A stretch of DNA of 61,565 bases, counting the filler, from Hausera hauseri (taxonomy: Eukaryota): NCBI GenBank assembly GCA_046269625.1. It is 11 parts of 11 records of this genome, joined end to end, with 100 filler letters (N's around TTAATTAATTAA, not from the genome) between each part and the next. Parts side by side here need not be neighbours in the genome. Positions count along the whole stretch, not along the records: positions 40,711 to 45,031 come from JBJURY010636330.1; 10 more parts are not named here. The stretch is one strand, 5' to 3'. Positions 6,260 through 57,914 of this stretch are shown here, piece after piece. The notes beneath the pieces were generated by a model, which did no database searches, had not been told where the DNA came from, and saw only the letters and a program-made list of their open reading frames with translations. Position numbers and translations under genes: made by a program. Each line of letters starts with the position of its first letter. Positions within the stretch are counted from its first letter, which is position 1.

Positions 6260-7831
6260 AAGCCCAGTGGAAGATAACTTTAGTTTGCTACTTGTGTGCA
6301 AGAGCATTTACCACTGGCAATCACAAAGTTCGGGATCACTGCCATGTCACTGGAAGATACCGTGGTCCTACATGCAATTCATGCAATCTCCGCTGTCCCG
6401 TTATATTTCATAATTTAAGCGGATATGATCCACATTTTATTATCAGGAAACTTGGGAATGTGATTGGAAAATTGATGTAATTCCCCATAGTAAAGAAAAA
6501 TATATTACTTTTACTGTGCATTTTGGAACCATGCAGCTGCGTTTCGTAGACAGCTTAAAATTTATGAGCAGCCGTTTGGCTCAACTTGTGAAAAATCTTC
6601 CAGAGAATGAATTAATGGAAACCAAAAGATATTTCCAGGATGATAAATTCCATCTAGTGAAAAGAAAATGTGTTTTTCCATATGACTACGTCACTTCATG
6701 GAAAAAATGGATGAAACTAACATACCAGCTCTGGAAAGTTTTTATAACAAATTTTCGGATTCGGAGATTAGCGAAGAAGATTATTCACATGCTCAAACTG
6801 TATGGAGCTCATTCAACTGTAAGACACTGTGTGATTACAGTGATGTCTACCTATTGACTGATGTGCTTTTTCTAGCTAATGTATTTGAGAGTTTCCGAAA
6901 TGTGACAGTGGCAAGCCATAAAGTTGATTCTGCTCATTTCTTCACAGCTCCTGGAATAACATGGTCGGCATTGTTAAAATTCACGGGAGTTCAGATGCAA
7001 TGGTTGAAGGACTACGACATGATATTAATGTTGGAAAGGAGAATACGAGAGGGAATATGCCAAGTAGTCCATCGGTACGCTGAATCCAATAACAAGTACA
7101 TGAGTGACTATAATTCAAAGAAACCAGCATCTTCCGTAATGTACCTTGATGCAAATAATTTCTATTGATGGGTGATGAGTTTCAGTTTACCATATGGAAA
7201 ATTTCAATGGGTCGATAATCCCAGTCAAAGTGATATCATGGATATTCCACCAGATTCAGAAACAGGATACATTTTGGAGGTCGACATAGTTTACCCTGCA
7301 TCCCTACATGATGCACATGATCAGCTGCCATTCCTGCCTGAATCAAAAATATTACCAAATGGCAAATTTAAAAAATTACTACTACATTTGGATAATCGGA
7401 AACGATATATCGGTCATTATATTGCTTTGCAACAGGCAGTGATAAATGGTGTATATATTACAAAGATCCACCGAGCCTTGCAACTAAGTCAGTCAAAATG
7501 GCTTTAGCCGTACATACAACTTAATACTGACCTGAAAATTGCTGCAAAATGATTTTTAAAAGGACCAATTCAAGTTGTATAATAATTCGGTTTTTTGTAA
7601 GACTATGGAAAATGTCTAAAATCGCAAATGTATTGCATTGGTTAATGATTGGAGTGGAGCAAGGAAATTAATTGCAAAGCCTCATTTCCTACATAGTGAC
7701 ATATACACCGTAAACCTGGTGAGTATTTGCATGGCGAAAACGGCACTCAAGTTTGACAAACCAATCTACATCGGAATGAGCATTTTGGACCTGTCGAAAA
7801 CTGTCATGTATGATTTCCATTACAATGTAAT
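6260..7831 (+). pseudogene. Polinton/Maverick protein-primed family B DNA polymerase (pPolB), decayed, interrupted by LTR insertion
   Basis: RDHCHVTGRYRG..CNL, FHNLSGYD, DSLKF, FPYDY, YLDANNFY, FK...NNSVF..TMEN and KPIYIGMSILDLSK motifs, with frameshifts and stops. Confidence 0.9.
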
Positions 7832-11160: not shown

Positions 11161-11412
11161 NNNNNNNNNNNNNNNNNNNNNNNNNNNNNNNNNNNNNNNN
11201 NNNNTTAATTAATTAANNNNNNNNNNNNNNNNNNNNNNNNNNNNNNNNNNNNNNNNNNNNGGAGAGATTCTAGAAATTTGCCTCGAGAAGTAAATTGATC
11301 TAAACTATTTGAAAAAGAAGAACATTAGAATAGACCATCCTCTAGCAATGGCAATAACAGACTCGAAGATGTAGTACGAAACTTAACCCGTAATAACCGA
11401 TGAAACAAATCG

Positions 11413-13035
11413 AATTGGCTAATTAACTTCCTAACCTTGATGATGTTAGTAAAGTGAATTGGAGCTGTTACGGTATACCACCGCGACAATTCAAACTTGG
11501 CCAAAAATATTCACTGATGGATTTATAAACATGGGAAGTCCCAAGGCCACACAAATTAGAAACAAAAGAAAATGACTACGTATTATATCAACAGCATGAT
11601 CTAACTTCTTTAGACGGAATAAAATGTATGTTTCGTAGATCTCGTAGTATTTTCCATTGTGAATAAATGCATGGACATAAAATAATAAAACCAACAACTC
11701 CACCAATCCCAATGAACCTAGAAAGACAACCCTGTAAACAGGCTAGAGAAACTGGTAGATTAAAATGGGATGGTATGGGACTAGAAATAAAACAAGGAAA
11801 ATAATTATATCATTTAAAGCAGCAGTCGGAAAATTAGATATGCATACCGAAATAAGCAACGGAGCCGAATACGACACTGGAAAAGGAATAGGAGGCGTAG
11901 TAGTTGTTGAATTTTATAAAATCGAAATGCGGATGTTTCATAGCGTTACTAAACTCTGTACTGAAAATCAAAAGTGTCATATACAGGACGGCATTTGCGC
12001 TTATAGAAGTTCAGTCGTAAATTTGGGAACCTCCAACTAAAACTGAATGTAACTTTATCAAATTTAACGAACCAAAGTTTAACGAAACGTCAGAAAAATG
12101 TTATGTAAACAGTATGAATCTGGTTCGAAAACGCGAGAAGACGTAGCAGTACAACCTACGCCAACCATATTAGTTTCCTATACTCACGGGTTAAAATATA
12201 TGAGAAAGGATGTACTCACACGTTGCGACGCAATGATGTATGCCATTAATTACAAAACATTTTTCGTAGCCAAAACTGAAATAAATATCAAGACGTTCAA
12301 ACTCGAAGCACACGTACGAATTGAAGATTGCTTGAAAAATAGAGATGTCTATTTCTTTTACAAAGGACAAGCCGGAATAACCGAACTATGTCATAAATTG
12401 TAATCACTGATTGCAAATTAGACTTTGAAATTACGAGAACTAAACTGGCTTTAATATAAGCTAATCCCTAGTTAGCATCACCAATAATTCCAATGAAGGA
12501 AGGTGTCGTTTTTCGAGTTACTGGTGAAATTTTATTAACTTATGAATGCGAAAAAAGAGATTTACCCATAAATGTAGAAGAAAAAAGATGAATTCAAGAA
12601 TTTCCAGTACTATACCGGAATATTCCGAGATTGGCGACGACAATTACTAGAGTTTTACCAGCAAACTCAACTAAACCAAGAATTTTGAAAGAATGTAAGA
12701 CGTGTCTAGGAGAACCAATGTTCAGACGTAACGAAACTGACTGGATAAGTTTACCAAATGAAAGCGTAACTACCCCGCACAGCAAATTAACGGGAACTAA
12801 CTTTGTAAAAGGAATAACGGACGACAAATTTCAAGACACCGCGATTAAAGTATTTACAAACCGAAGGAAGTTGAAGCACAGAACGAATGAAATACGATCA
12901 ACGTTTTCGAGAGACCGAGAAATGTAGGCTTTCAGAAACGCAGAATCGCAGCCAATAACTAGAAATCAAGAAACTGAAACCGTCAATTATGTAAATAATG
13001 AACTATATCCAAATGGAGAATTCAGACAGTTAGTT
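11413..13035 (+). pseudogene. env: Env: chuvirus/herpes-gB-like glycoprotein ectodomain preceded by an internal signal peptide; decayed, TM absent
   Basis: NWLINFLTLMMLVK*IGA|VTVY, KYSLMDL, IFHC, DGICAYRSSVV, RCDAMMYA, GEILLTYEC, EFPV, C...W pattern. Confidence 0.75.
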
Positions 13036-13139
13036 GATCATCCAGTTACAACTCCGAAATTAGAATAAATGGATACAATGTGTCAGTAATCCAGCATCCT
13101 AAAGTGGCACCAAATAGCTATGGTACAATAATTAAAGGA

Positions 13140-13440
13140 TGACCCTTCACTAAAATTCAAATAAAATGTTGGGAAGTCTATGAACTAATAGACACGGAAT
13201 CCCAAATATCACTAACAAAACACGACTCAATACTACAGGTTTTATGAAAACAATTATATCCACCACCAGCAACAGATCCAGGAACTGTTGGAGCTCTGTA
13301 TAGTCATCGAGATGTAAATACAGATGGAAGCCTGAAATATACATGATGGGAAAATCATTTCATCACGAATCCTCAATAATAAAACAATTAACTGATAATG
13401 TTGTGTTAGGAGACGATTTAGTGAAACAATTGTCAAATGT
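13140..13440 (+). pseudogene. pro: Retropepsin (aspartic protease), degenerate
   Basis: PFTKIQIKCWEVYELIDTESQISL (DTG degraded to DTE); downstream *CCVRRRFS-like remnant at the C-terminal LG.D position. Confidence 0.6.
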
Positions 13441-13769
13441 GGATTCCGCTGGAAAAAAGCAATCCTCCTAGAATACAGATGTTGATTTATGCACAATTCC
13501 GTCAAGATGATGATCAGCCAGTGTACTTTGAACCAAAAGAAACGCTAAATCCAAGCACCGTACACAGGGTATCGTCAGGCCGTGTGCCGATTAGATTAGT
13601 AAAAATGCGCCAATTCCAATTAAACTTTACGGTAATACTACAGTGGGTCATACGTATAAAGTGTCATCGATAACTATCGAGGAAAAACCTTATAAACGCT
13701 CTCAATTTCAATCTCATGTTGAGAATAAATTTTCACCTGAGTTTTACTGTCGCTTTTATGACCTGTTAT

Positions 13770-14740
13770 AAATCGATTATTGATGAAAATAAAGATATTG
13801 GTAGAACTAAAACTCCAAGGTTAACAATTCTGCTTAAGAGAAAGCCAGGTTCAAATGACTCAATAAATCTAGAAGATCAGAAGATGCCAAAATAGTATCC
13901 TATGCCTCATTTATTAATACTTGAAATAAGAAAAATTGAAAGAATGCTTAAAGCCGATATCATTAGACCGAGCTATAGATCTTGGTATTCACTTATACTT
14001 ATGATTAAAAAGAAAGGTTCCACAAAACATCAATTTTGTATCGATTATAGAGCGCTGAGCAATCTTATGATGAAAGATTCTTTTTCATTACCATCTGTAA
14101 AGGAAGCTTTAGATAGACTCTCAGGAGCAAAATGGTTTACCACTTTAGATTTGCAATCCGGATAGTGGCAAATAAAAATAGAAGATAAAGACCGTTACCA
14201 GATAGCATTTAAAACTCACGATGGTATATGCGAGTTTAATATCATGTCATTTGGTATTACAACCGGACCAGCTATTTTTCCCCGAATGAATAAAATATTG
14301 ATGGGATTAGAACATGCATTTGCATATTTAGATGGTGTAATGATAGTGTCATGAACGGAAGATGAGCATGTAAAGGATATCGAAAATACACTTACGAGAT
14401 TAGAACAGGCAGGATTAAATCTAGATCATACGAAATATAAATGAGCTCAGAATGCGGTATCCTATCTCGGACATATAGTTGGAGAAGGAGGATCGAAACT
14501 TGATAAGTCATTGTTAAACAAAATATCAGACTGTATGGAACCACAGAACCAAAAAGAATTAAGACATTAGTAAGGCTTGTATGGATATTATGCGACTTAT
14601 GTGCCAGAATAATGAAAATTAAATGCACCATTGTATCGTTTACTTAAAAAAGGAATCAAGTGGAAATGGACAGACGTCGAACAAAAGGCCTTCAACGAGA
14701 TGAAGACAATTTTAACCAGCGACCCAGTAATTCATTACGT
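13770..14740 (+). pseudogene. pol: Ty3/Gypsy reverse transcriptase, decayed, truncated before RNase H
   Basis: IIRPS.RSWYS, FCIDYRALS, WFTTLDLQSG*WQI, MSFGITTGPA, YLDG (YLDD), YLGH, AFNEMKTILTSDPV. Confidence 0.9.
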
Positions 14741-17700
14741 TTGACGCATATCGAAAAATCACTTTCTTGTAACACTTTCTTTTGCATTTCTCGGCTTCTC
14801 TTGAATAATATCGTGTTTTATTTTCGTCCACGCATTCATCCCGACATTCTCCATTAACCTATACCAATTTCCTGAATGTTGCTCAACATTTCTGGTTTGT
14901 CTTCAAGTTGATTTCTTTCTTCCACCATGTATTTTGCATTCGTTCTGACTTCACCGTTCGACTCACACAAATACCGACATTCGGAAACCATCATGGACTG
15001 GCTTGACCAACTTCCACTTCTGCTCCACAGACCCATGCTGGATCTTTGCCACTTTTGATTGATTACCCCGCTTGTGGCATTCACCCCTACCCACTCTATC
15101 CCATATCATTCGAACGCCCATAACCCAAACAACAAATTATCTCATCAATTACTGCTCAAATTTGGCTTCCGGAAGAAGTCGATTTGATTGCATTTCCTGA
15201 TTTCCCCTAGGGTTATACAGCCTCGCAGTGTGCACCATTGAATTCGCCGTACTCGAATTGTCCAAAAACCACTCATTGTCCAACAGCACCTGTTCCATTT
15301 CCCGTGTTCCTTTCTCCTCCAGGCCGACATCCAGAATATCTACCTCCTTTTACCTTTATGTAGAATTTAACTTTTTGTGTTAATGACTTAGCCTACTTGT
15401 GTTTTGGTTGTCAACGCTTTATTTAGTGGGAAAGGAAATTAGAATTACTTAAACAAAAAGAAAATAGACTAAGCAAAAATTATTTAACTTTTACTGAAAG
15501 GATGATTTCTTCGCTAGTAACTGTTCCGAACGAGGTTAGTGAATATATTTTTCTTATGCTTTTCCGAAAAATTGATTATTCCTTTGGTATATCGAACGGA
15601 TGTTAAGAGTTGAATCCAATTTCTCTACATAACCTTTAGCCACCGGGCGGTTAGACAATACAATTTCACCGTCATTTTTTAATTCTTCTATTATTAGTCG
15701 TTTATTCCTCATGGAATCACTAGATTCTTTGGAATTTTCGTTATATTTCAAAGGATTTTGTTCAGCCTTCTTGACAGTATTGCGAATTTCGCTCTCTTGA
15801 TAATCTTTTATCTCTTTTGACATTCGCTGTTTAATTTTCTCGAAATCCTTAACACGACTATCAACTCCTTGTNNNNNNNNNNNNNNNNNNNNNNNNNNNN
15901 NNNNNNNNNNNNNNNNTTAATTAATTAANNNNNNNNNNNNNNNNNNNNNNNNNNNNNNNNNNNNNNNNNNNNAACAATTATCTCCTTCACTCATTAAATG
16001 ATTCTTCTTTTTATCCTTTTTTGAATTTCCTGACTTTATATTGGCTGTTTATTGATTCAACTTTGAATTGAATTAAACATTAATATTCGTTTAAATTCCT
16101 CCTCACAATTACAATAAAAGAAACAAGGCCTTTTAATTTTATAGTATTTTAATTTATTTTAATTATAATGTAATACATTTAAAAAATGTTTATTTATTTC
16201 GTTTTAATTAGCAAGGTTTTACAGTAGCGCATTCCATCATAATAAAATTGATATATGTACATGATTGACCACAAATTATATTCGAGTGATATTTTTTATT
16301 TCGTCAGAGCACAAAGGAAACGACATAAATTGAATATTAAACGAAGATTTATTTAAAATGCAAATTTTAAATAAATCTTCGCTTCATGTGTTTATAAATG
16401 TCATAAAATGTCAAGTTGAGGAATACTACCTCATTGATAATTGGTTGTTTTGTGGCAATGAAAATTGAAATTAAATCTAAAAATTCAAATAACTGTAACT
16501 TATAAAAATGGTTATTCGTAAAACAACTATAAATGGTACTTCCAACAATTTAACTGCATGAATAAGTGTATTTCTGTTTTTTTATCAACATTTTACGAAC
16601 AGTTAGCACAAAGAAAAAAATTTACATACTAATATTTATAAATATGTTTACATGAAACGAAACATATTTTAACGAAAATAAATCAAAACTTTGAAATTAA
16701 TTTTGCATAAAATCTGAAAACTTGTTAAAAATCAAATAAACGTACTTGAGTTTTAAATCATCACGATAATTGCAAATTATGATTTCAACCACTATTACAA
16801 CTTTATATTAACAGAGTACACAACAAATGTCAATGTTGACTTTATTCGGTTATCGATTGTCCCATTATTGCTATAATAATAATTTGTAACTGATCGCCTA
16901 AAGTTGGTCAGTGTTTATCAATCGAAATGTGTGTTAAATAGACCAAACCTAATACGTACATCCTGATTATTGAAATTTACAACTTTGAAATGTACTTTGA
17001 AGTGTTCCACCGTTTGTTATAATTTGACAAATCATTCCATCTTCAATTATTGTATCAGTTACGCGTGTAATATTTATAACTGTTTTTACTGGATGTGTTG
17101 TCTGTCAGAACATTGTTTTTAAATCAAGGTTCGAATTAAGATTATTTTTGTTCAATATGCAATTCACACACCGAGAAAGTCTAAAAGATATTTTATGTAC
17201 ATTTTTATTTTACTGAGGCAAACAAAAGCACTGATCACGTGACTATCACGTAACTGATCACATGATGCGTGAGTGGACCCCTTTTCCCTTTGGTCCAGAA
17301 CCATTTTTTTACCCTACTTATTCGGACTTATTTGTTTTGCTGAAATGCCGATTCACTTAGCCAACCTATTACACTCAATGAATTCATTTTAAAACTTGAG
17401 TCATTCAACCAGCCCACCGTATTAAACTTATTTTAAAGTTTGAGTCACTGGTGGTGCTAATGCGTTTAAATTTAATGCGTTTTTAATGAAAAGCATTAAT
17501 CTTTGTAACAGTTATCAAATTGCAAAATAAATTAGATTTTTTTGTAAAAGTAGTCGAATTACTAAAGCAAAGTTCATTTACTCTATGTGAAAATATATTT
17601 ACTGAATTTTATTCTAAAACAATTTACACTGTTTACAATTGGGTATTTACCCATGTGAAATCAACATTCACCATTTTTACTTTTTGGATTATCATTTCAT

Positions 17701-21172: not shown

Positions 21173-22245
21173 ATTGGCGTAGATTAGAGCTAATTTAGTT
21201 CTCATAATTTCCAAGTCTAATTTACAATCGTTTGTTATCATCTTGTGATGCAATTTTGCTATTCCGGCTTGTCCTTTATAGTAAAAATAATCGTCTCTGT
21301 TCTTCACATAGTCCTCAATTCGGATATCTTGAGTCTCGAGTTGAACTTTCGTACATTTATCTCAATCTCGGCTACAAAAAACGCTTCGTAGTTGGTAGCA
21401 TACATTATTACGTCGCATCGGGTGAGCATGGTTTTCTTTACGAATTGTAATCCATGCGTATCCGAAATCAATATAGTAGGTGTGGACTGTTCGGCCACAT
21501 CTTCTCGTGTTTAAGAGTTGGTCTCTGTATTAGTTATGTACCGCTTTCCGGTCGTCTCGTAAAATTTTAATTCTTTGATCCTAATGAAGTTACAATCAGT
21601 CTTAGCTGGTGGTTCCCAGATCACTACTGAGCTTCGAAACGGACAAATGCCATCCTGGATGTTACATTTGTGGTTTTCGGTATAGAACTTGGTAACGCTA
21701 TGGAACATTACTTTCTGTATACGCATTTCGGTTTCATAAAAATCCACTACCACAACGCTCGGCTCTAATCCTTTTCCCGTATCATATTCTATACCTGGGC
21801 AATGTCCAGTGTGCATATCCAGTCGTCCTGCTGCCACCTTATATACTCTAATTATTTTTCCTTGTTGCATCTCCAATTCCATGCCATCCCACTTTATCCT
21901 TCTAGTTTCTCTGGCTTGTTTACAATGTTGACGCTCTAAATTCATTGGAATTAAAGGAATGGTTAGCTTGATTATTGACAAGTGTCCATGTATTAATCCA
22001 CAGTGAAAAATGCTTCGAGATCGTCTTCACATACACTCTACTCCATCTAATGCAATTAGTTCGCGTTGTTGATATAACACGTAATTTTTTCCTTTGTTTC
22101 CAGTTTGTGCGGCCTCGCATTTTTGCACATTTCCAAGTCCATTAGGGAGTATTTCTGGCCAAGCCTAAATCTATCACAATCATATACAGTGACGGCACCT
22201 ATCTGCCTTATTAGCATCATGATGGTCAAGAGGTTGATTAGCCAA
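21173..22245 (-). pseudogene. env: Env N-terminal half (gB/chuvirus-G-like) with internal signal peptide
   Basis: WLINLLTIMMLIRQIGA|VTVYDCDRFRLGQKYSLMDLEMC ... RSIFHCGLIHGH ... CKQA ... CNIQDGIC..RSSVVIW ... DCKLD. Confidence 0.8.
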
Positions 22246-25200
22246 TTCGATTCGTTTCCTCTGCGGTTTCCGGTTACGTTTCGTAGCAGGTCACCGAGCC
22301 TGTTGTTGTCGAAAAAGAATTCTCCTTTATGTTCTTCTTCCTTTTCGAAAAACTTCGACCAATTTACTTCTCGAGGTATTTTTCTGCCAGCCTTCCTTGC
22401 TAAGCTAGTAGCCTTATTAAATTCATTTTCGCGGTTCGGGTTGGTCTTTATGGCTAGATATAACATCACTTTCCTCAATTCCTCTACGGTATTTTCCATC
22501 ATAATCTTCTCAATCGTTGCTTCATCGCTTAAGGTACTTTTGGATAATTTATACCGGAGTCCTTTCATGGCTTTGGCAGCATTTAATATGGTCTTTTCTT
22601 TTTCATCTAACACATCGCCGTTCAAACTGGAGTGGTTCACTTTTCGTATCAGATCTTTCATTAGTTCATTCAGTTCCTCACTGTCTGCACTAAAGGTTGG
22701 TATGGACATCTGTCTCAGCTCTCTGATCAAATCTTCATTATAGTCGATTTCTTCTCTTACCTTCCGTGGCCTACCAATAGGTCGCTTCTGTTTCGTTACG
22801 ACAGGTATACCAACATTAATCGGTACTAAATTTTTATCGTATTGTTCATGATCTTCGTCTCTCTGTAAATACTCAATGTACACTACCGCGTTTCGGACTC
22901 CTATTATTCGTCCTACTGGCTGTTCGGCCTTTGCCTTCCTTATAGCCTCTTCTTTTGTCTCATCGTTAGCGATAGTTACCACTAACTGGTTTACCTCGTC
23001 CGGAATGATTCCAACCTCTATTAATAGTTCCGACTCGTCGAGCATTCTCCCTCTAAAATATAATCTATAGTTCACCTCTTGGTTGTAACCATTATTCTTT
23101 ATACATAATAATACATCCTTCACGGATGAATGTGTGGTGAATTCTTGCTCTTTTTCATCCATCCAATCTGCCGTTATTTTAACTTTAATTCCCTCGTCGA
23201 GCTGGTCCTTGGAAATTTGGCATATTCTTTGATTAGAAGTTTTGGCGCGGCATTGTAAACTGTCCCTTCGCCGGCTAATTTGGTTAAAGTGGGAACCCAC
23301 CATCTTAATTGTTTTTCAGTGAGGTTCACATTGATTAACCTAAATAGTTCCTTTTCAGTTTGTACCGGATCTAATAGCATTTCTACACAGAATTTCTGTT
23401 CTGGCGAGCATATCTCCGTTTCGTTTAAGTGTACTGGAGTTTTCGGGGTTTCGGCTATTATGGCATCCAGATATGCCTCCCAATCTGGTTCATTTTCATT
23501 ATCCGGTAGTGTATAACTTCTTGGTAGTGTATCAGTCGACTCTCTTGCACCCGTCATCTCTACGGTTGCTCTAAGTTCACGTAGCTTCTGTTGCATTATA
23601 ACCATTTGGGTGGGTCGGAAGCAGCGACCATTTCCTGAACTTCGATGTAGTACCGTTAGCAGCTGGCATAATTCCTCGGCTGATATAAGTCCCTTTTCCT
23701 GGTAATTAGTTAACTCGGAGGCTACGTCTCATTGCCACCTTTGTACAAATTGCGACTTGTCAGCCTTCTCTGCTTCGGTAAGAGCATATTTAACTTTACA
23801 TGGTTCGAGTTCTTTGGCGAGCTCGTCCAATCTCGTCGCTCTCTGTTTGGTTTTGATATTAGTATCTTCCACTTGCTGTATCTGGGGCAGCAGCTGTCTT
23901 AATTTCTCATCGCTGATTTCGGCCATAACTTTGGAGTCGGGGTCTATCTCGTCCCGTAGCCTTTTTATGAACTTGTCTTCTTCAAATTCCAAATATTGCT
24001 CATTTCTCATTTTAGTTAGTTCGGTATGATACCTTTGATCGACTCCAGGCATTCCTTCCTGTGGTTGATGTAAAAATGCCACTATCTCTTCGAGGGTCGA
24101 CCTGTGATTAGGACAAACGTCTAATGCCTTAAGGTCACGTACGGATATTTCTTTTATGGGCTTGGTGGCCAATTTTTGAATCCCTTCTAGACGGACTTTT
24201 CATAATTTCGAATAAAGGTCGTGCATCCGATTCCGTTTTTGCGCAAAGTTTGTTTCTTCAATCGTTTTGTATATATCCCCAAGTATCATCATTTCTTGTT
24301 CCTTGTCCATAAAATCCACTGAGCGTAAGGATTCGAATTTCGTTCGGATATCAATTTCTGCTTTCATCGTATCTAAATTTTGGGCGCCTTCTTCCAACCG
24401 CCTCTTCACTCTGAATTCGCTTTGCGGAAATTCATTCATCCGGCTACTTGTTAGTTTGCCCAACCTTGCTATTACTTTCGACCACTCATTCATTTGATTC
24501 TTGATGTCTGACTTTGCTAATATTGCTTTGTTTAACATCTTATTGGCATCTTCCAGTTCTTCATCTGGGCCTTTGAGGAAATCAATGATCTTACAGGCAT
24601 AGTCGAACTCATCTTTATATTCATCAAATTCGAGGATACAAGCTATAATTATTCTCTGTGTTTCATCGTTATTTGGGTACATAATTCTATTCTTTAGACT
24701 ATTTATCTGCGACCGTTTTTCGGCTTCGAGTTTGATACGACTTTCCAGGTTAGTGTATTGCCTTGTCGCATTAGAGGCGATTTTTATCATTTCCATTAAA
24801 GGTGGAATATCTATGGGGTCTATACCCAACACTTCCAAATCCGTTTCAGTCCTTTTTTGAACCGGTTTCTTTTTTATTTGCTCAACTATGATAAATCTAA
24901 TTTCGTCCATTACACGCTTTAAATTTCGTACCGCTCGCTTTAATTTCGGGTTTGCTTCTAATATTGCTAGCAGCGACTGAGCCTGATTCACTTTAGTTTC
25001 TATGTCTTGTGTGGTCTTATACCACATCTCTAAGTTTTTCGTCTCAACCTTCGTCCAGTGTTCTAATTCACTCTTCCATTGTGCTAACATTTCTTTTGCA
25101 ACTTCATCGGGTTGATCCAAATCTATGGCTTCATTTAACTTCCCTTCACTATACAGTTTCACCTTTTTATACAGTCTCTCGACAAACTGCTGTTCTTTGC

Positions 25201-26045
25201 CAGAAATATCCACTTGTTCACTTATCGCTTTGAGTTTCTCTAAATTCTGTTGTAATACCTCCGGGTCGTGACAATTTTCCCTCATTCTTTTTAACTCCTC
25301 GGCATTTTTCCACGAGCGCCTGATTTCCCACTTTTAGGGATCAAGTTTCTTTTCTTGTTCGGTTTCCTCTTCACTAGTAGGTATCGGACATACATCGTTT
25401 ATTTCATCCGCAAATTTTATCAATCCTTCTATTTCTCCGTGCGTGACTAAACTAACTTCTGGACAATTTGAGGCGTACTCGATGTGGCTTTCTGGTGCGA
25501 TTTTGATCTCTTTCTTTGTGCTTTACTTGCGCATGGGAGATCTTAATCTATCTTTGCCTTTTCGCTTCAACGAGGGACTAGGGCCTCTGTTTTTAGTAAT
25601 TTTAAGTATAAGCGGCTCTAGGAATTCTTCCTTCTCTTCAGCGTCTATTTCCTTAGTTATCTTTTTCATAGTATGCTCGGGCTCTACCTCTATAGTTACT
25701 TTATCCGGAGTCTCAGAATTTTCCATTTCGTCTGACTCTTTGCTTGTCCTAGAGAGGTTCTTCTGCCGTGCCATATCAGTAAGCCTTGGCGGGGCGATAG
25801 AACGTTTATATACCGTTTTTTGTTCATGATAAACTTCCATTAGTCTTAATTTGTGCTCATATTCATTTCTAGCTACTAAGAATTTAGGGTCACCAGTATC
25901 AGGCTGATTTTTCAAAAAACGCCTTAAATCTTGTATCTCAATAATCATGCCTGTGTTTCGACAAATGCCATATATTGCTTCTAGATTTTCGTTTCTAATT
26001 ACGTTAGTTTTACTAGGTTCCACGAACGAAACGCTTCGCGGATTC
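22246..26045 (-). pseudogene. Region X (~1,250 aa): RS/basic patch, helical/coiled segments with SAM-like repeats, ubiquitin-like domain, AT-hook
   Basis: Long co-framed ORFs. Ubl-like YRLYFRGRMLDESELLIEVGI; AT-hook KRPIGRPRK. Confidence 0.7.
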
Positions 26046-26414
26046 GGACAAGACCTCGCTATATGTCCTTCTTGTCCACATGTAAAACAGACTAAATTGC
26101 CATTTCTNNNNNNNNNNNNNNNNNNNNNNNNNNNNNNNNNNNNNNNNNNNNTTAATTAATTAANNNNNNNNNNNNNNNNNNNNNNNNNNNNNNNNNNNNN
26201 NNNNNNNGTCAGATTATTAATACGTGTCTGAAATTCACTTTTTCTCTCTAATGAATTTAAAATTGTAATATTTTTGATCAAATCTTTATGTATAAGATTA
26301 GGAAATCTCCAGACGTTTGAATTTTTGAGGATATGACAATTCGTGGGGAATCCACTTATCCATCTTTTTCACCTTTCAAATTTTATTAAGGTAACGACAT
26401 CGTTACTATGGATA

Positions 26415-30180: not shown

Positions 30181-31019
30181 AGCGTTGGACATCGGACCGA
30201 TTCAAATCGGTAGAGCTCGACAAGGCGAGCAAAAGTTTGTAGCGCGGGTAAGTCCCCAAATGTAAGGGAGAGGAGCCAGAAGACGAAAAAGAAAAACAGG
30301 AAATGCATCACCAGAAACGCGTAACACATTCATGGCGTACTAATACAATGGGCATACGTCAAATCGATATCGGCGAGTCGAATGGACACACTTTCAACGT
30401 TTTTCGCACATGGGAACATGGGGAAAAATCGATGGGAAAAATTCAAACTCTAAAAATTTCCCATTGCTCAAGTCCAACGGCGACGAAAATTCAATGAGCA
30501 CGTAGCCCGTGACGAGAAGCACATTTCATATTATAAGCACCTCACTATTAGACGATTGCAAGTTGGTGAAAAATAACGCGAAAAGGCGTTGTTAAAATCT
30601 AAAGTTTTATTTTGTGTTTGTCGTGTCGTGTCGTGTCGTACAATAATCGAAATGGAAATTTTCAAAATCATCAGCGACATTATTATCGTCATCATTCTCA
30701 AACCATGAGCATGTAACCAGGTACTACCACTATCTCTTCTCACCGTGAACAAGAGGTGCGAGAAGGTGATTGACAATAACCGACCTGCCTGGCTGCATGC
30801 CTGTGTGAATGAAACTGTTTGCTGCAACAACTGCGCAAAATAAAAAGTTGTCGCGCCAAACAAAATATTTCTGCGTGCGCGTGCTTTTAGCAAAAGTGCT
30901 GGGAAAAATAACACGCACATGGATAACAAAATACTGTATTTTTCAAAATGAACACAAAGTAAATAAGTCAGTAAGTAGTAGAGTAGTAGTGTTCAAAACA
31001 TGATAATGATGATCAATGT

Positions 31020-31400
31020 TCATCCAAGTGTCTGTAATGTAAGCCACAATAAGTAGTAATGTCCACACAGTATAGTACTTGGATGTTGACAATGAAGTCT
31101 GTTATATTCAACGCAATATGACGATTGTCTTTCAATTTGAGAAACTAACGATGACGGATAGTAAAATACGAGCGGATCGGATATGTTTACGGCGAAGTTC
31201 GTAGGATGTATGTACACAGCAATCCAATGTTCGCCGGGTAACGATGACGTGTGTGTATTGACAATGAAGCCGCCAACACAGTCAATTTGTCGTATGTCGC
31301 GCGGTACACGGTCCAGCGGAAACAGACTGCGAAATTTCTCGCCCATGAGCAGTTTTCCGTAGCAATTGAGCTCGATGGAGCTAAATGTAAAACATGGGAT
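31020..31400 (-). pseudogene. Polinton adenain-like cysteine protease
   Basis: GGFIVNTHTSSLPGEHWIAVY...DPL...QHPSTILCGHY (H, D, Q and C catalytic pattern). Confidence 0.85.
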
Positions 31401-31478
31401 TAAAGCATAACAATATTAATAATCAATTACTTCATATTTTTGAGTAGTAATATGGCAAGAGTGATGCATTAAATTTAT

Positions 31479-32238
31479 TTATACAATGGCGGTTCCGCTT
31501 TTTGTTATTTTCAACTCGGCATTAAATACACCGTAAATATGCATCACGGTAAACTGTTGCAGCGCTTTGCCAAAGTGAACCTCTAATCGAAGGTTTTCCT
31601 CTTGACGTAATTAAGGCTTCTCAACACCATAGTCCGGGGACAGGACAAATGTGAAGAATGCGTAGGTGGACTTGAGCAAATCCATCGATATGCCATTGTT
31701 GATGTCTTTCTTGAGCAAACCTATGTTGCACACGACGGATTGTATATATGTGCAAACATAATCATTATATTCAAAGTTTTGTTTGTACGCCTCAACAAAA
31801 TCCGCATACCGACCCAAACAGATGTTATTCACATTGCTATGGGTAAACGTTTTCTAATCGGTCGTATAACTGCCCGTTTGTTGAACAGTAACGAGCACAA
31901 ATTTGGGCAATCGCATGTCGCCAAACAGGGCGTCCTTATAAAACGTAGATGAACCTTTGGGTATCGTGTAAAAGACGAGTTCTGTGCGTTGTATCTGGTA
32001 ACAGGCATTTTGTGTTTCCAAGCCCAATCGATGTCCCATGAGCACAGATGGTTCTATCTTTACAACACGTACGTATAATAGTGCCTCGGTAATTTTTAGT
32101 GTGGGTTTCAGATTTGCAACTGCGGTTTTCAAACAAAAGACATTGTCGCTTCGTTTGAGCTGAATCATGGCTTTAACACCGGGCAGTAGGTATTTCGGCT
32201 GATCGAAAAAGTCAAAGTACAGCGGTCCACACATTGTA
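31479..32238 (-). pseudogene. Polinton major capsid protein, C-terminal part
   Basis: GPLYFDFFDQPKYLLPGV, LYVRVVKI, RLPKFVLV, NLRLEVHF. Close homolog of 55535-56766. Confidence 0.85.
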
Positions 32239-40610: not shown

Positions 40611-41559
40611 NNNNNNNNNNNNNNNNNNNNNNNNNNNNNNNNNNNNNNNNNNNNTTAATTAATTAANNNNNNNNNNNNNNNNNNNNNNNNNNNNNNNNNN
40701 NNNNNNNNNNGGCAATATGACTTTAAGCAAATTCATTGAACAATGAACAATCCTTAATATAATGTCCGTGTATGTATAACTGTACATGAATATAGAACAT
40801 TTCTGATTACATTCTGAAAAAGAGGTCGGCAAATTTGACGAAAAAATTCCTCTATGTACTCAACAAGCTCTACATATGGATCTGAAGATAGTATCACATT
40901 TCTGATTATTTGTTGTAAAAATCCCTGTGACAATAATAAATGTTCCTTTGTAAGATAAATTGTGACACTATAAGATTCAACTGTTTCATTTTTTCAGAAT
41001 CCTGAGGGGTAAACAATTCGTGATTTTCAATAACATTCTGGACTTATTCAGCCATAAATTTGAGCAGATGAAAACTGTCTTAAACTATCGAGCGTATAGA
41101 AAGCTTTGTTTGAATTATAACTGAAATGTAATATCAATTATTTGGTGTTTGCGATAAAGCTTATAAAAACGATTACAATGTATACTAAACATAAAAATGG
41201 AACCAAGTGGGTTAAAGACGTCTATAAATGACACAACATGCTCAAAGAACAGAATAAAACGATTGACATCTTGACTCTAGTTTGTTAAATTCTAAATCAA
41301 TCATTTTATATTACTCCTGTAAGATATCCTCCACTAGTGGATCTTTGTAATCGCTTTGTCTTGCATTTCGTTGGTTATCTTTGTTAATTGTTTGAACAAT
41401 CATACTTATCAGTTGTTCTGTATCCATTATGCGTTTCTTTCGTGTTTTTAGGTATGCTTGGATGAACTTTCTGCGAATAATATGCATTCAGATCCTGCAT
41501 GTTGTCGTAATCAAAGTTAAAATGATCATTATAGTCTTGATCGATATCACTTTCTTGAA

Positions 41560-42900
41560 GTCTTGACAAGAAATCCGCATTAGCGTTTGCTTTTCCTTGC
41601 CGACATTTTATCGAGATTTCTAGATCCTGGATTTCTGCAGCCCATTTCATTAATTTTCGACTGGTATCCCGTTGCTTCATCAACCATTGCAAAGGTTTTT
41701 GATCCGTATATAGTATTGTTTTTCGTCCGGTAATGTAATACTTAAAATATTCACTTAAAATATTTCACTTAAGGTTTTACTGAGACATGCTATTATTCCT
41801 TCGCGTGGTCTATCAGGAACTGATTGTCCTAAGACTGCTCCTATCGCATAACCACTGGCATCAGTCATAATTATATAGGGATAATTAGGATCAGGAAACT
41901 GTAATATCGGTGTGGAAGTTAAGACTTGTTTTAAGACTTCGAATGATCTCTGATGTGTCTCTTCTCAATTCCATGTTGTTCCTTTCTTGGTTAGTTCCAC
42001 TAGTGGTTTAACTATACATGCAAAATTATATACAAACTTTCTATAGTAATTAGCCATTCCTAACAGTCTCTGCAATTCCTTGAGATATTTAGGTGGTTTT
42101 AACTTCATAAGTTTTTCTACATTTCTAGGATCAGATTGAATACCTTTACTCGAAACTATATGTCCAAGAAAAGTAACTGTGTTTTTCGCAAACTTACATT
42201 TCTTCATTTTAATCTTTAAGTTGGCTTGTTTCAATCTATCAATCTATTTTAAATGTTGTTCGAAGTTTTTAGAAAATATTATTACGTCGTCTATATATAC
42301 CATGCAGTGAGTTAATCCTTGTAATACAAAATCCATACATCTTTGAAATGTAGCAGGTGTATGTTAGTCCAAAAGGCATAACATTAAATTCCCATAATCC
42401 AGTTCCTGTGGAGAAGGCTGTTTTTTGTTTATCCTCCTCAGCTACTTCTACTTACCAAAATCCGCATTGTAAATCCAAGGTGGTGAATATTGTAGAGTTT
42501 TGCAAGGCCTTTAACATTTCATCTATTTTTGGTAATGGGTAATTGTCTTTCTTTGTAACATTATTTACTGCTCTAAAATCCACACAAAATCGTTGAGTTC
42601 CATCCTTTTTCTGTACCAATACTACTGGAGATGTCCACGGTGAGAAGCTTGGTCTGATAATACCGTGCTCTACCATTTGTGCTATTTGTCTGTCACATTC
42701 TTCTTTCTTAACTTCAGCCATTCTATACGGATTTTGTTTAATAGGACAGATATTCTCTGTAATTATGTGATGTTGAATGACATTACTTTTACCAATATCA
42801 TTATCGTTCATAGCTATTATATCTCGATTCTTGTGAAATATTTGTAACAATTTCTTTAGTTGATATGGGGTTAAATCACCATATTTAAATTTGATATTCT
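41560..42900 (-). pseudogene. pol: Reverse transcriptase and RNase H
   Basis: IIRPSFSPWTSPVVLV.KKDG..RFCVDFR, LDLQCGFW, MPFGL, YIDD, FLGH, TDASGYAIGAVL, TDQKPL, NANADFLSR. Confidence 0.93.
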
Positions 42901-43269
42901 CGTCTTCTACGAGAAACGTTGCTGCACATACCTTGACAAATTGTAATTATCCTAAATTGAGATTTTGTCCCAATCTGATTTCCTTCTTATTAATGCTTTC
43001 TATTGGCAACTCCAAACGTTGTACTTCTTTTGGCACAAATAAAGGTATTGCAAGATCTTACATTTTTCGTTGTTATACAAATTTGGTTCGAACATACAAG
43101 TTTGCTTGAGATTTCCAGATGGTATCGTTAACATTACCACTATCTGATGTTGTGGTTTGATGACGATATTATGGGTCAAGGTCATATTAATTTCTTCTAT
43201 TGGTAGATTGGTCATCGTATATTTGAGAGTTTTGGTCGATATATCCATTGAAAGGTCCGATATCTGGAA

Positions 43270-43555
43270 AAATACATCCATTCCTATTACTAAGGGTGCT
43301 GGCAATATTTTATCATCCACTAAAAATAAAGTGATCGTATGTGAGTTATCATCAATTCTTATTTTAATGTTTATTTTTCCCAAAAATTGCACCTGCATGG
43401 AATTAGCTGCTGCTATTACTATATCACTTGGCATGATTTCTCCCTTTTGTTGGTCGGTTAGATACGAATATCGAATCATCGAAACGGACGCACCGGTATC
43501 TAATAGTGCCATTATATTTACTCCAATAAATCGCACTGGAACATAAGGGTTATTT
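43270..43555 (-). CDS. pro: Retropepsin protease domain within ORF 43000-44058
   Basis: PYVPVRFIGVNIMALLDTGASVSMI...LVIGMDVF. Confidence 0.9.
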
Positions 43556-44039
43556 CCTGTTGTTAAAGTGGTTTGTGTCATGAAGATGAATTTTGTATTG
43601 TTCCATCTAGCATCCGCAATATTGTATTGTCGAAGTACACTTGGTGGATAAGCAGAACTCGGTAAGCAAGTATATTCATCTAAATGTCTTGCCATTGGAA
43701 GATCATGCATAGACGTGACTTTCCTTTCTCTATATTCAGGATATTCTGTAAATTCATCGATAGGTTCGGGTTTATAGTATGTTTGTACTTCTGGCTCAGA
43801 GTGTTGTCTAGCTTTCTTTCTTAATAATTTATATTTAACTAGATATTCCTCCACTGCTAACTTAATAAAAGCTTGTAACTGTTGTTCTAGTTCTGGGGCT
43901 AAACGAAGTTCTTTTCTTAATTTGTCAAGTTCCTTTGCATGCAAATACATTAGTGGTGATTGAGCCATAGAGGGAAAACATTTCAGCATAATTTGCCATG
44001 TACAACCACGTACTTTCTTTATATTTCCGTCGGCTCCTA

Positions 44040-45031
44040 TTTGACTTAATATAACCATTATGGTGGTAGTTATAACATATATACCGAAAACTCCAGATAT
44101 AACCTGACAAAAAATAATGAACTTATTCCAAAAGTCCTAAAGGATCTTTTTAGCTGTTCTCTCTAAATGGTCATTTGGAAATAACATTCCATAATTAGGT
44201 ACACCATCTGATCCTTTTATAACAGTATATTCGAATTCTGTGATGACTTTTTCTCGTATATTCTGAAATAATACTTGTTTTTTTACTGCTTCCAGGTCTG
44301 TTAAAGAATATAATCCACTGGTGGGAAGTTCTCTGTTCACTTTAAACTTTATATCTTTATCCAGTGGTAGTAATCCAATTGTCTGTGGTATATTCATCAT
44401 AGTTGGTGGGTGCGTTTTGGTCCATCTTCCGTCATTAAGTTTAAAAGCTGGATAGAAGTCTTTGTAACATGGTGCAAAGTTAATTTCAGTAGGCAACAAT
44501 AATTTTTGAGTCATAGGGTTTACAGATCCGGTTCTAGTTATCTTTTTATCATTATAATGAACCACTAATTCGCTTGTACAATTTTTTCTTGTGCTTGTTA
44601 TTGGGGTTACTTCTATTGGAGGACACTGATACACATGGAGTATTTCACCTTGTACTGTATTACATGTTCCAGGGCGATATCCCATAATTAAGGCGATATG
44701 TTCTGGGAATTCTCTGGCTAGTATCAAGTCGTGCTGGTTCATTTTTTGAGTGATTTTACAGTCTCTTAGTACCATCATGTTATATAACTCAACTAAATCT
44801 ATTTTTGCGGTGTAAAAAATATAATTTATCTTGTTATTCGTGTATAGGTAACACTTTATATTTTCACTCAGTAGCTTTTCTGTATTTGCAAGAGTTACGT
44901 TTGTTACATACAGTTCTTCATAAGATATAGAATAAACGACATTTGATCCACAAGTCGATACTGCTCCTTTGCGTGCCAGTATGATTTCATCTTTGTCACT
45001 GGATGACATTAAGACTTTTAAAGAAGTGGTT
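44040..45031 (-). pseudogene. env: Env C-terminal half plus transmembrane anchor (gB/chuvirus-G-like)
   Basis: YTNNKINY..LVELY...DC..LILAREFPE, PG..QGEILHVYQC, CTSELVV, SGLYSLTDL..VLFQ. One TAG (44137-44139), then DFWNKFIIFCQVISGVFGIYVITTTIMVIL (TM), in frame with the protease. Confidence 0.8.
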
Positions 45032-54913: not shown

Positions 54914-55153
54914 ATTTTTGTTGGTGGAGTACGTGTACCGCTACTCCGTGGAACTTATCCTGAAAGCAGAAAGTATACTGCTGGTGACAATGTCACTGCC
55001 AAGCTTGATAATCCAATGTACTTATATGTGGCATTTACATCTATAAACAATGTTAAAGTGAATATCCGATGTGACGTGGGCTACCTTATTGAATTTCCGT
55101 ACGGTACCACAACCAGTCTAACTCCTCATTTCTGTCGAATCCAAAATGATTGA
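54914..55153 (+). CDS. Minor capsid C-terminus
   Basis: FVGGVRVPLLR...NPMYLYV..INNVKVNIR..G.LIEFPYG...PHF. Confidence 0.75.
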   Translation: MFVGGVRVPLLRGTYPESRKYTAGDNVTAKLDNPMYLYVAFTSINNVKVNIRCDVGYLIEFPYGTTTSLTPHFCRIQND

Positions 55154-55515
55154 TTTCAAAATCGTTACCATTTACAGTAATCCCAAGCAAGGCGGTGAAC
55201 TGCCGTATTTCGTTGGTAAACAGTATGGCTTTCAATGGTTGCGTACAATGGCACGTTTAGCATTTCTGTTGTTGAAGCGTATGTGTGATGTGGAAGAAAA
55301 AACAGCACAGGATGTACTATATAAAAACAAATCGATTTTACCATCAGTGAAGGAGCACACCTTGTCGCAAATAAAAGTCGCTGCACCGAGAGTCGTTGAA
55401 TCAGTCAAAAAACAATTATTTGGTAGTGGCTTGACGAGAAAACGTGGATGTGGTAGATCAGCTAGCTTTTCAACTATAAACAAACATCGTCGGCGTACGA
55501 TTTTCGATCGATTGA
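55146..55515 (+). CDS. Polinton basic core-like protein
   Basis: KQGGELPYFVGKQYG..WLRTMARLAF...LFGSGLTRKR. The ORF track reads through to 55703, overlapping the major capsid start. Confidence 0.65.
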
Positions 55516-55534
55516 TTGACAGACGGACAGACAA

Positions 55535-56766
55535 ATGGCATCTACAAAATCTGAATTGTGTATATTTGACAAAGGCGCGACACAAGTTGTTATTGACAAT
55601 GCAGCATTTGAAGAAATCTAACCAGTTGATTCGGTTTCAACAGACGATAACATTGACATTTAATTCAACATTATGGCATCGGACAATGAATACCTGGATT
55701 TAAACGACACGCTACTCTATGTATAAGTCATTGTTAGAAAGGATGCATCAACGGTTCTCGCTGCAACAGACACTGTCACACCGGCCAATTACCTTTTCCT
55801 CGCACTGTTCCAGGAGGCTTCACTGACTCTAAACAGCGTCAAAATTGAAGGCAACACCAGTCTATACAGTATCAAAGCTCTCATTGAAACGGCTCTGAAT
55901 TACAGTACTGACACGAAAACGACTCATTTGACGAAAACCGTCGGATATGACGCCACTGTAGCAAACCGTCAGTCATGGGTGGCAAAGTCAAAAGCGCTTA
56001 CAATGTGTGGACCGCAGTACTTTGACTTTTTCGATCAGCCGAAATACCTACTGCCTGGTGTTAAAGCCATGATTCGGCTCAAACACAGCGACAATATCCT
56101 TATGTTTGAAAATCGCAGTTACAAATCTCAAACCCATACTGAAAATTACCGAGGCATGATTATACGTACGTCGTGTAAAGGTAGAACCATGTGCGCTCAT
56201 GGGATATCGATTGGGCTTGGAAACACAAAATTCCTGTTACCCATTACAACGCACAGAACTCGCCTTTTACACCATACCCAAATTTCGATAACGTTTTACA
56301 AAGACGCACTGTTTGGCGACATGCGATTGCCGAAATTTGTGCTCGTTACATTTCAAACGACTGCTCAACAAACGGGCAGTTATACCAGGGATTCGGAAAC
56401 GTTTACCCACAGCAATGTGAATTACATCAGTTTGAGTCGGAATGCGGATTTCGTTGAGACACAAGCCGGATTTCGAGACCGGCGATTATGTTTGCACATA
56501 TATGTGATCAATCGTGCGCAACATTGGTTTGCTGAACAAAAATGTCAACAATGGCATCGATGGATTTATTCAAGTCCACCTATCCATTCTTCACCTTTGT
56601 TCTGGCTCCACAATATGACGTTGAACAGACTCAACTAACTACGCAGAGAAACCTGAGACCGGAGGTTCACTTTGCTAAAGCGTTGGAGCAATCTACCATG
56701 ATGTACATTTACGGTGCATTTGATGCCGAAGTTGAAACAACGAAAAACGGAACCATCATTGTATAA
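55535..56766 (+). pseudogene. Polinton major capsid protein
   Basis: MASTKSELCIFD..TQVVID, EYLDLNDTLLYV, DFFDQPKYLLPGV, RLPKFVLV, NLRPEVHFAKAL. Confidence 0.88.
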
Positions 56767-56837
56767 ATAAATAAAATCCTCTGTGTCGTTGTCGTCGTCT
56801 TTGTCTTACTATGAAGTAATTTATTTTGATTACTATT

Positions 56838-57212
56838 ATGCTTAAATCACATTTTACATTTAGCTTCACTGGGCTGAGTCACTACAGAAAGCTGCTCTTG
56901 GGCGCGAAATTTAGTGATGTTTCCACTGGACTGTGTGCCGCGTGATTTACGACAAACTGGTGGCTTTATTGTCAATACAACACTTCATCGTTGCCGTGCG
57001 AACATTGGACTGCTGTGTACGTTCATCCGACCGTCGTCGAGGTATTCGATTCGCTCATATTTTACTACCCGTCATCGTTAGTTTCTCAAATTGAACGGCA
57101 ATCATTATCATCATACCGCGTTGAATACAATCGATTTCATTATGAACATCCAATGACTATACTGTGTGGATATTACTGATTATTGTGGCTCACATTACAA
57201 TCACTTTTGTGA
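56838..57212 (+). pseudogene. Polinton adenain-like protease
   Basis: GFIVNT, PCEHWTAVY, EVFDS, TILCGYY. Confidence 0.8.
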
Positions 57213-57914
57213 AATATGTATTATTTTGTTGCTGTTGTTTTTTGTGAACCGAAGAGCGAACAAATCGTGAGAAATAATATGGTATTTTCATTAATGTTAG
57301 CTTCAAATTTGGTGGTAGTCATTAGTTTGTAGGCAGACTGTCACCACCATCACCTCCTTGTGAGTAGTAGCAGTACTCAATTATGAGCTCGTGGTAATTT
57401 GTGCGTCATCATACAAAATAAAATTCACGATTTTTCTACAAAAAACGAACTCATTTACAACGATGATGATTTCGATTTTTTAACAATGCGTTTTTTCGGT
57501 CGGTCGGTTGCATTTTTCACCCGGATCCTTTCGTCTGATCGTGAGGCGGCTATAATATGAAATGCTCAACTACTGATGGGCTTCGTGCTCAACCCATTTC
57601 CACAACCAGCAGACTTGAACAATGGGAAATTTTTAGAGTTTGAAATTTTTCCATCAATTTTCCCCATGTTCCTATGGTCAGACGAAGTTGAAATTGTGCG
57701 CATTCGATTCCCAGACATTGATTTGACATTTACACCAAACATTGTGCAATTCGTAATTTGTGTCTCGTTTCGTAAAACATTTCCTGTTTTGCTTCTTTTG
57801 CTTCTAGCGCCGTCCAGTAAAATTTTTGACTCTCACCGCGCTATAAAATTTTTCTCGCCTCATCGAGCTCTACCGATTTAAGTCCGTGACATGTGCGACA
57901 CATGACATGTGCTT

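What the first reader, a model, noticed from the sequence alone, without database searches (positions are those of the whole stretch)
41384..45031. Second, divergent family with Env-TM fused in frame to the protease upstream of RT
Seen: ORFs 44137-45009 (ectodomain) and 43000-44058 (tail plus LLDTGAS protease) share a frame, separated by one TAG just before a TM segment (FWNKFIIFCQVISGVFGIYVITTTIMVIL). RT and RNase H follow in the same contig. This Env shares only its cysteine/motif skeleton with family A (GEILHVYQC vs GEILLTYEC). The env-before-pol layout is therefore an old lineage trait rather than a one-off rearrangement. It implies Pol is synthesised as the cytoplasmic tail of the fusogen and freed by the protease, which could couple enzyme packaging to envelope incorporation.
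Basis: partly seen in the sequence, partly recalled or inferred. Interest (0 to 1): 0.88.

Follow-up and report, generated by a model that had tools for sequence, protein, structure and literature searches.

The report
Retrotransposon envelope protein fused to protease
This is a broken copy of a virus-like jumping gene, likely from a flatworm, whose membrane-fusion protein is written in one reading frame with its protease, a layout already published for planarian Burro elements; the copying enzymes are likely made as the fusion protein's inner tail and cut free later.

Summary
Observation confirmed; layout already known. Contig 40711-45031 (minus strand) holds a decayed Ty3/gypsy element: class III Env (PF24664, E 8e-33), a TAG, the TM, a 181-residue linker and an aspartic protease in one frame, then broken RT and RNase H; it ends before integrase. 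The TAG is decay, not readthrough: 67% and 88% of sister-copy depth in two runs read another letter there, and the closest relative (62%) is open. Of 30 relatives with this TM block, 26 carry a protease in the same chain and 14 run on into RT; one contig holds a single 3,703-codon gag-env-pol ORF. Families A and B fall in one RT group of env-before-pol elements (97/91) but are not sisters. Env in frame between gag and protease was described for planarian Burro elements (PMC6431247), and GAG-ENV-POL gB-type elements in flatworms, nematodes and bryozoans (PMC13524379). Pol as the cytoplasmic tail of Env is a sound inference, untested. Against: the closest relative ends 34 residues after the TM. 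Not found in print by my searches: relatives carry extra protease domains and a second membrane protein after integrase, with a predicted fibronectin-III fold in the one folded; the window copy lacks that part.

The parts
44140..45030 (-). C-terminal half of a class III (gB/mononegavirus-type) Env ectodomain; cut by the contig end
   Evidence: PF24664 positions 249-514 of 653, E 8e-33; all 36 listed Foldseek rows are herpesvirus gB, best E 1.5e-3, weak
44137..44139 (-). TAG, a nonsense break of this copy
   Evidence: another letter in 2847 of 4219 (X1) and 361 of 408 (X2) summed contig depth; P0002 open here
44047..44103 (-). Env transmembrane anchor
   Evidence: hydropathy peak 2.25; block conserved in relatives
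43963..44007 (-). conserved, weakly hydrophobic helix behind the TM; likely lies on the membrane, not across it
   Evidence: seen in the 11 relatives printed; under the 1.7 threshold in the window, 1.71 in P0035; role inferred
43549..44046 (-). open linker from TM to protease (181 residues TM end to the DTG motif)
   Evidence: no stop; 115-188 residues in 10 relatives
43258..43548 (-). retropepsin-type aspartic protease, DTG at 43500
   Evidence: RVP E 8e-6; own profile
42896..43257 (-). spacer between protease and RT, with a frameshift near 43050 and a stop at 42949
   Evidence: aligns with relatives in two frames; no dUTPase Pfam hit
41881..42895 (-). reverse transcriptase and connection, broken (stops 42454, 42246, 41967; frameshift near 42360)
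   Evidence: RVT_1; YIDD at 42297; 48-55% to relatives
41402..41880 (-). RNase H with a frame break near 41760, and following linker; the element stops near 41300, before integrase
   Evidence: RT_RNaseH E 5e-9; depth of sister copies falls from 2297/113 to 7/0 at about 41290; no integrase match in the window
11490..14790 (+). family A copy on another contig: decayed Env, protease remnant, RT; no TM block detected
   Evidence: tblastn with relatives; profiles
21173..26107 (-). family A copy on another contig: CCHC knuckle, long spacer, signal-like segment, Env N-terminal half
   Evidence: zf-CCHC E 1e-7 and PF24664 E 5e-9

Best explanation
The stretch is a decayed, truncated copy of a Ty3/gypsy element in which a class III Env, its membrane anchor and the protease share one reading frame, and the active element likely made Gag, Env and Pol as one polyprotein threaded through the ER membrane. 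Shown for the window: Env-TM-linker-protease in frame, RT and RNase H behind, TAG not shared by most sister copies. Shown for relatives: one ORF gag - hydrophobic signal - Env - TM - protease(s) - RT - RNase H - integrase. Inferred: Gag stays in the cytosol; the internal signal carries Env into the ER lumen and signal peptidase frees its N-terminus; the TM stops transfer, so the protease and Pol emerge as the cytoplasmic tail; Env trimers gather protease monomers, which dimerise and cut Pol free; Pol thus starts out tethered at the budding membrane.
For: Frame and domains. TAG not conserved; three of the four pol stops likewise differ in about 99% of sister depth. No listed variant gives a stop behind the TAG in 37 of 37 codons checked, and 20 of 34 variable places in 43900-44136 are third positions; no indel listed in 43900-44180. 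26 of 30 relatives with the TM block have a protease in the same chain, 14 of 30 RT as well; L001 is one 3,703-codon ORF, L002 at least 3,426. A hydrophobic run ending in small residues precedes the Env start in all 12 relatives printed. Hydrophobic segments in full-length relatives come as signal/anchor pairs that leave Gag and Pol on one side. RT tree group 97/91. Published parallel: PMC6431247 section 7.
Against: P0002, the closest relative (100/100 with B in the Env tree), ends 34 residues after the TM; whether by contig end, decay or a natural stop is unknown. Three more relatives lack a protease in the chain (P0098, P0101, P0102). The census is biased: the seeds came from a query that held the protease, and three pairs are members of one 90% cluster. 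Only 40 of 1,068 and 40 of 49 variant rows were shown, so 43060-43900 is thinly checked. The frameshift near 43050 is bridged by only 3 and 1 contigs (4% and 44% of depth). No RNA or protein evidence. One-to-one-to-one synthesis of Gag, Env and Pol is an odd ratio for a capsid and needs a control that is not seen here. Gag of family B is not in the contig.
Confidence: 0.75

Rival explanations
1. The frame is continuous, but most Pol (or most Gag) comes from a separate spliced or shortened message, so an Env-Pol precursor is minor and packaging is not coupled to Env.
For: Established: single-ORF retroelements such as copia and Tf1 fix the Gag:Pol ratio by splicing or selective breakdown (recalled). 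The linker holds several Met codons.
Against: An open linker of similar length is kept across relatives at 25-30% identity, which needs translation through it. No RNA data either way.
Confidence: 0.15
2. The family B branch has a regulated stop or shift shortly behind the TM, giving mostly Gag-Env and a little Gag-Env-Pol; this copy happens to be open.
For: P0002 ends 34 residues after the TM; P0098 also ends near the TM.
Against: At the matching place none of the listed variants of sister copies makes a stop and no indel is listed (9 rows unseen). P0002 also lacks a capsid or knuckle match at its start, as a fragment or decayed copy would; P0098 ends in residues unlike the family's, as after a frame break.
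Confidence: 0.07
3. The TAG before the TM is a programmed readthrough site that yields a secreted Env beside the anchored form.
For: Its position one residue ahead of the TM block.
Against: Most sister depth reads another letter (67%, 88%), P0002 and all relatives printed are open, and the copy has four more stops. The remaining 33% and 12% of depth are not resolved by the table.
Confidence: 0.02
4. An integrated viral glycoprotein gene and a pol fragment were joined by chance or by the assembly.
For: The window is a chain of short repeat-rich contigs.
Against: 0 of 20,000 shuffles open; same order in relatives; sister contigs tile TM to protease in two runs.
Confidence: 0.01

Closest known systems
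Burro / GYPSM1 giant gypsy-like elements of planarians (Arkhipova and Yushenova 2019, PMC6431247; section 7 and passages read)
   Same: One polyprotein with env in frame between gag and protease; env hits mononegavirus fusion glycoproteins; a spacer between protease and RT; CCHC knuckles, ubiquitin-like and ankyrin domains in relatives; decaying copies with stops and shifts.
   Different: Family B is a separate branch (RT at most 57% to any row held) with one protease. Size, BCL2-like and MATH/BIR domains cannot be seen in this contig. The section does not mention membrane topology, extra proteases or a membrane protein after integrase. No direct sequence comparison with Burro was possible.
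GAG-ENV-POL errantiviruses with HSV/gB-type Env, flatworm group C1a (Chary and Hayashi, eLife 2026, PMC13524379; abstract, part 1 of sections 5 and 6, sections 14 and 22, passages, rows of supplements 1 and 2 read)
   Same: Gene order, gB-type Env; by eye the Env domains I-II of the relatives held here closely match the six Schmidtea mediterranea rows, far more than the bryozoan or the ten nematode rows shown.
   Different: The parts read speak of ORF order and do not say whether env and pol share a frame ('polyprotein', 'fused', 'frameshift': 0 hits). The paper finds the arrangement in several separate clades.
Nematode endogenous retroviruses (Sacco et al. 2022; not held; seen only as cited in PMC13524379; 'continuous gag-env-pro-pol ORF' is recalled)
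   Same: Env before pol; two named nematode proteins found here have Env, protease, RT and integrase in one chain (P0007, P0039).
   Different: They lie outside the 18-row RT group that holds A and B (long branches); by eye their Env is far more distant; no second membrane protein seen.
Anakin (BEL/Pao) and insect errantiviruses with chuvirus-like Env (PMC7642597, search listing only; passages in PMC12440569)
   Same: Same broad glycoprotein family, PF24664.
   Different: BEL/Pao backbone or gag-pol-env order with env as its own gene.

Membership tests
Ty3/gypsy (Metaviridae) | pol with protease, RT, RNase H in that order | tested here: met
Ty3/gypsy (Metaviridae) | integrase behind RNase H | tested here: inconclusive
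   the window copy stops before it; met in relatives
Ty3/gypsy (Metaviridae) | LTRs and primer-binding site | not testable with these tools
   contig ends inside Env; no long repeat in L001 or L002
Burro-like elements | env in frame directly ahead of the protease | tested here: met
Burro-like elements | gag with CCHC knuckles in the same ORF ahead of env | tested here: inconclusive
   not visible for family B; met in L001 and other relatives; P0002 has no knuckle
Burro-like elements | env related to mononegavirus fusion glycoproteins | tested here: met
   PF24664 E 8e-33
Burro-like elements | ubiquitin-like and BCL2-like domains ahead of env; dUTPase-like domain between protease and RT | tested here: inconclusive
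   ubiquitin E 0.003, under cut-off, in L001; no BCL2 support for P0002; spacer present without a dUTPase hit
Burro-like elements | giant size (ORF near 4,900-5,100 aa) and RT kinship with Burro itself | not testable with these tools
   no Burro sequence at hand; relatives with RT in the chain are 2,627-4,844 aa
GAG-ENV-POL gB-type errantiviruses (flatworm C1a) | HSV/gB-type Env fold | tested here: met
   PF24664; weak but uniform gB rows; gB first and second at Z 4.7 (rmsd 4.4, 104 aligned) and 4.6, within noise
GAG-ENV-POL gB-type errantiviruses (flatworm C1a) | domain I-II sequence and cysteine pattern of group C1a | tested here: inconclusive
   likeness by eye only, mostly through relatives; family B shows only the last 45 or so residues of that region
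Nematode ERVs (Sacco 2022) | RT within the nematode clade | tested here: not met
   the two nematode rows pair outside the group holding A and B; only two rows, both long branches

The most novel reading that the evidence does not exclude
These elements are enveloped viruses built like flaviviruses: one four-pass polyprotein yields membrane-anchored Gag, a gB-type fusogen carrying Pol as its tail, several protease domains, and, after integrase, a second surface protein of fibronectin-III domains on a mucin-like stalk that serves as the attachment partner of the fusogen. That would be a two-protein entry system in a retrotransposon, with family B a deep branch of it.
Probability: 0.35. Interest if true: 0.7.

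Novelty: new member of a known kind. Interest (0 to 1): 0.36.

Why it matters
The window copy itself is ordinary decay of a published layout. Its use is as a pointer: the lineage is broad (relatives at 25-30% Env identity keep the fusion) and abundant in two runs, so the question of how a retroelement makes capsid, fusogen and enzymes from one membrane-threaded chain can be asked of natural tissue. The second membrane protein after integrase and the multiplied proteases in relatives were not found in the papers searched and would, if real virion parts, show how a retrotransposon pairs a class III fusogen with an attachment protein.

Tried and rejected
No related loci in viral contigs (0 of 57 candidates) or genome contigs (0 of 40); 2 of 68 in metagenome contigs. 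No RNA holder listed. The RT-region search gave mostly multi-RT gene models of one pseudoscorpion and no named close host (120 of 2,313 hits listed); I used 26 of them as outgroup candidates, one dropped as short. BCL2-like domain in P0002, suspected by eye: no support from Pfam, PDB sequences or the Atlas. No PDB sequence match under E 0.7 for the family A spacer ORF. The wide fold search of the Env half gave no Z of 5 or more. Deep nodes of the Env tree are unresolved. Sacco 2022 and Grohme 2018 were not held. The published Schmidtea Env rows were compared by eye only. Figures and figure supplements of PMC13524379, and Fig. 2A of PMC6431247, could not be seen and may show frame continuity or extra domains. 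'Fibronectin' had 0 hits in the main text and 7 supplementary files of PMC13524379, and the search listed no paper on such a domain in these elements; this is no proof of absence from print. Earlier findings by words, place and sequence gave nothing on this layout.

Full report
What is there. The window is a chain of short contigs joined by a fixed spacer; the finding lies in contig 40711-45031. On the minus strand one frame runs from the contig end at 45030 to beyond the protease with a single stop, the TAG at 44139-44137. The part ahead of it matches the second half of PF24664, the Monjiviricetes fusion glycoprotein (E 8e-33). A model of it (pLDDT 65, pTM 0.30) gives no Foldseek match at E 0.001, but all 36 listed rows are herpesvirus gB; the wide search puts gB first at a Z within noise. 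Behind the TAG come the TM (44103-44047), a linker, and a retropepsin (RVP E 8e-6). The TM-to-protease stretch is open in 0 of 20,000 shuffles. RT and RNase H follow with four stops and three frame breaks, and the element stops near 41300, before integrase.

The TAG is decay. Two public runs hold many sister copies (15,520 and 1,884 contigs laid at 80% likeness). At 44137 another letter makes up 2847 of 4219 and 361 of 408 summed depth. Three of the four pol stops differ in about 99% of depth (the fourth is not among the 40 of 1,068 rows shown). The closest protein, P0002 (62% over 362 residues), is open there. Behind the TAG, none of 37 codons with a listed variant can form a stop, variants favour third positions (20 of 34), and no indel is listed in 43900-44180. 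Limits: 9 of 49 rows were not shown, and 43060-43900 is covered only by the few rows. The frameshift near 43050 is bridged by only 3 and 1 contigs, so its share in the family is poorly measured; relatives are unbroken from protease to RT.

The fusion is the rule in the lineage. A search with the TM-protease ORF gave 79 hits; I scanned 29, and 15 of those have PF24664 and a protease in one chain. A profile search gave 22 hits, 17 with both, 10 with RT and integrase too. Over all proteins held, 30 relatives carry the TM block; 26 have a protease behind it and 14 RT as well. The four exceptions are P0002 (ends 34 residues after the TM), P0098 (ends in unlike residues near the TM), and the distant P0101 and P0102. 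The census is not unbiased: seeds came from a protease-bearing query, the profile was built from ten of these rows, and three pairs belong to one cluster each. The linker is 115-188 residues in 10 relatives and 181 in the window. Locus L001 has one ORF of 3,703 codons with two CCHC knuckles, Env, two proteases, RT, RNase H and integrase; L002 has one of at least 3,426.

Families A and B. In an RT tree of 47 rows and 332 columns, A and B lie in a starred group with 16 env-before-pol relatives (97/91); two nematode rows join next (97/90); B branches first and A sits on a long branch near P0011 and P0097. Two rows (P0020, P0085) were labelled env-before-pol by inference from matching contig lengths, one row was dropped as short, and the 27 outgroup rows are a convenience sample without close env-less kin. 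In the Env tree (25 rows) B pairs with P0002 (100/100), several subgroups repeat those of the RT tree, and the deep nodes are open. So the layout is old within this group; one origin across animals is not shown, and PMC13524379 reports several clades. The family A copy at 11261-15872 shows Env, a protease remnant and RT, but no TM block, so it supports the order and not the TM fusion.

How it most likely works. In relatives a hydrophobic run ending in small residues precedes the Env start (12 of 12 printed), and hydrophobic segments come in signal/anchor pairs. By established rules of ER translocation this places Gag in the cytosol, Env in the lumen and, after the TM, protease and Pol in the cytosol again. 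Signal peptidase would free the Env N-terminus; the element's protease, brought together by Env trimers, would release Pol. All of this is inferred; nothing here shows RNA, protein or particles. The one-to-one ratio of Gag, Env and Pol needs some control, which keeps the rival of a separate message alive (0.15). P0002's early end keeps a regulated stop in branch B alive (0.07).

What is known. [quoted passage not shown] PMC13524379 lists GAG-ENV-POL gB-type elements in nematodes, bryozoans and flatworms; by eye the relatives' Env domains I-II match its six Schmidtea rows, which makes a flatworm host likely. Unchecked notes on this genome also suggest a flatworm, and one reports an F-type Env, which that paper did not find in flatworms. 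Sacco 2022 could not be read; its continuous ORF is recalled.

What may be new, outside the window. 12 of the 14 relatives with RT in the chain have two to five protease domains between TM and RT, and 9 of 14 have one or two after integrase; the window copy has one. 13 of 15 non-nematode proteins with integrase end in a signal-like segment, an ectodomain and a TM; the other two stop soon after integrase or its trailing protease. In the one folded (L001; mean pLDDT 48, about 70 over residues 151-240) that part matches fibronectin type III domains (Foldseek best E 9e-5, 43 matches at E 0.001; Z 10.3, rmsd 2.2, 85 aligned; Atlas lead at 0.85). Whether family B had it is unknown.

Verdict. Real, correctly described, and a new divergent member of a published kind. 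Interest 0.36.

Noticed in passing
L001:9988-11205; C-termini of P0003, P0011, P0020, P0082, P0084, P0087, P0088, P0090-P0093, P0095, P0097: A second type I membrane protein after integrase in the same ORF: signal-like segment, predicted fibronectin-III domain(s), Thr-rich stalk, TM and a Pro-rich tail. Not found in the papers searched.
   Followed up: partly
P0003, P0005, P0084, P0087-P0096, L002: Two to five protease domains between Env TM and RT, and often another after integrase; P0084 has seven, with ankyrin and C2H2 matches between them.
   Followed up: partly
L001:12085-13473; L002:10617-12107: Separate ORFs behind the polyprotein match the RNase_T exonuclease family (E 1e-3 and 1e-5).
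   Followed up: no
window 12920-13180 (+): The family A copy runs from Env into the linker without a detectable TM block and is about 480 bases shorter there than family B; probably a deletion in this copy.
   Followed up: partly
window 22900-23150 (-); P0002 residues 1025-1110 and 1195-1335: Ubiquitin-like and BCL2-like stretches ahead of the Env signal, seen by eye, as described for Burro; only a sub-threshold ubiquitin hit in L001 backs this.
   Followed up: partly
P0011 (HBK71150.1): A full Env-Pol polyprotein filed under a Flavobacteriaceae MAG on a 9-kb contig, most likely animal DNA binned into a bacterial genome.
   Followed up: no
window 3450-4119 and 5472-6140: Two copies of about 670 bases, 98% alike, 2 kb apart on one contig; could be the LTRs of a short non-autonomous element.
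   Followed up: no
window 6260-7770 (+): Decayed frames that look by eye like a Polinton-type family B DNA polymerase (label recalled; no Pfam hit for two pieces at E 0.01), directly ahead of a family A copy.
   Followed up: no
window 30421-32139 and 55122-57665: Related stretches on opposite strands of two contigs (75-89% alike), with ORFs of 193 and 303 codons that have no Pfam match.
   Followed up: no
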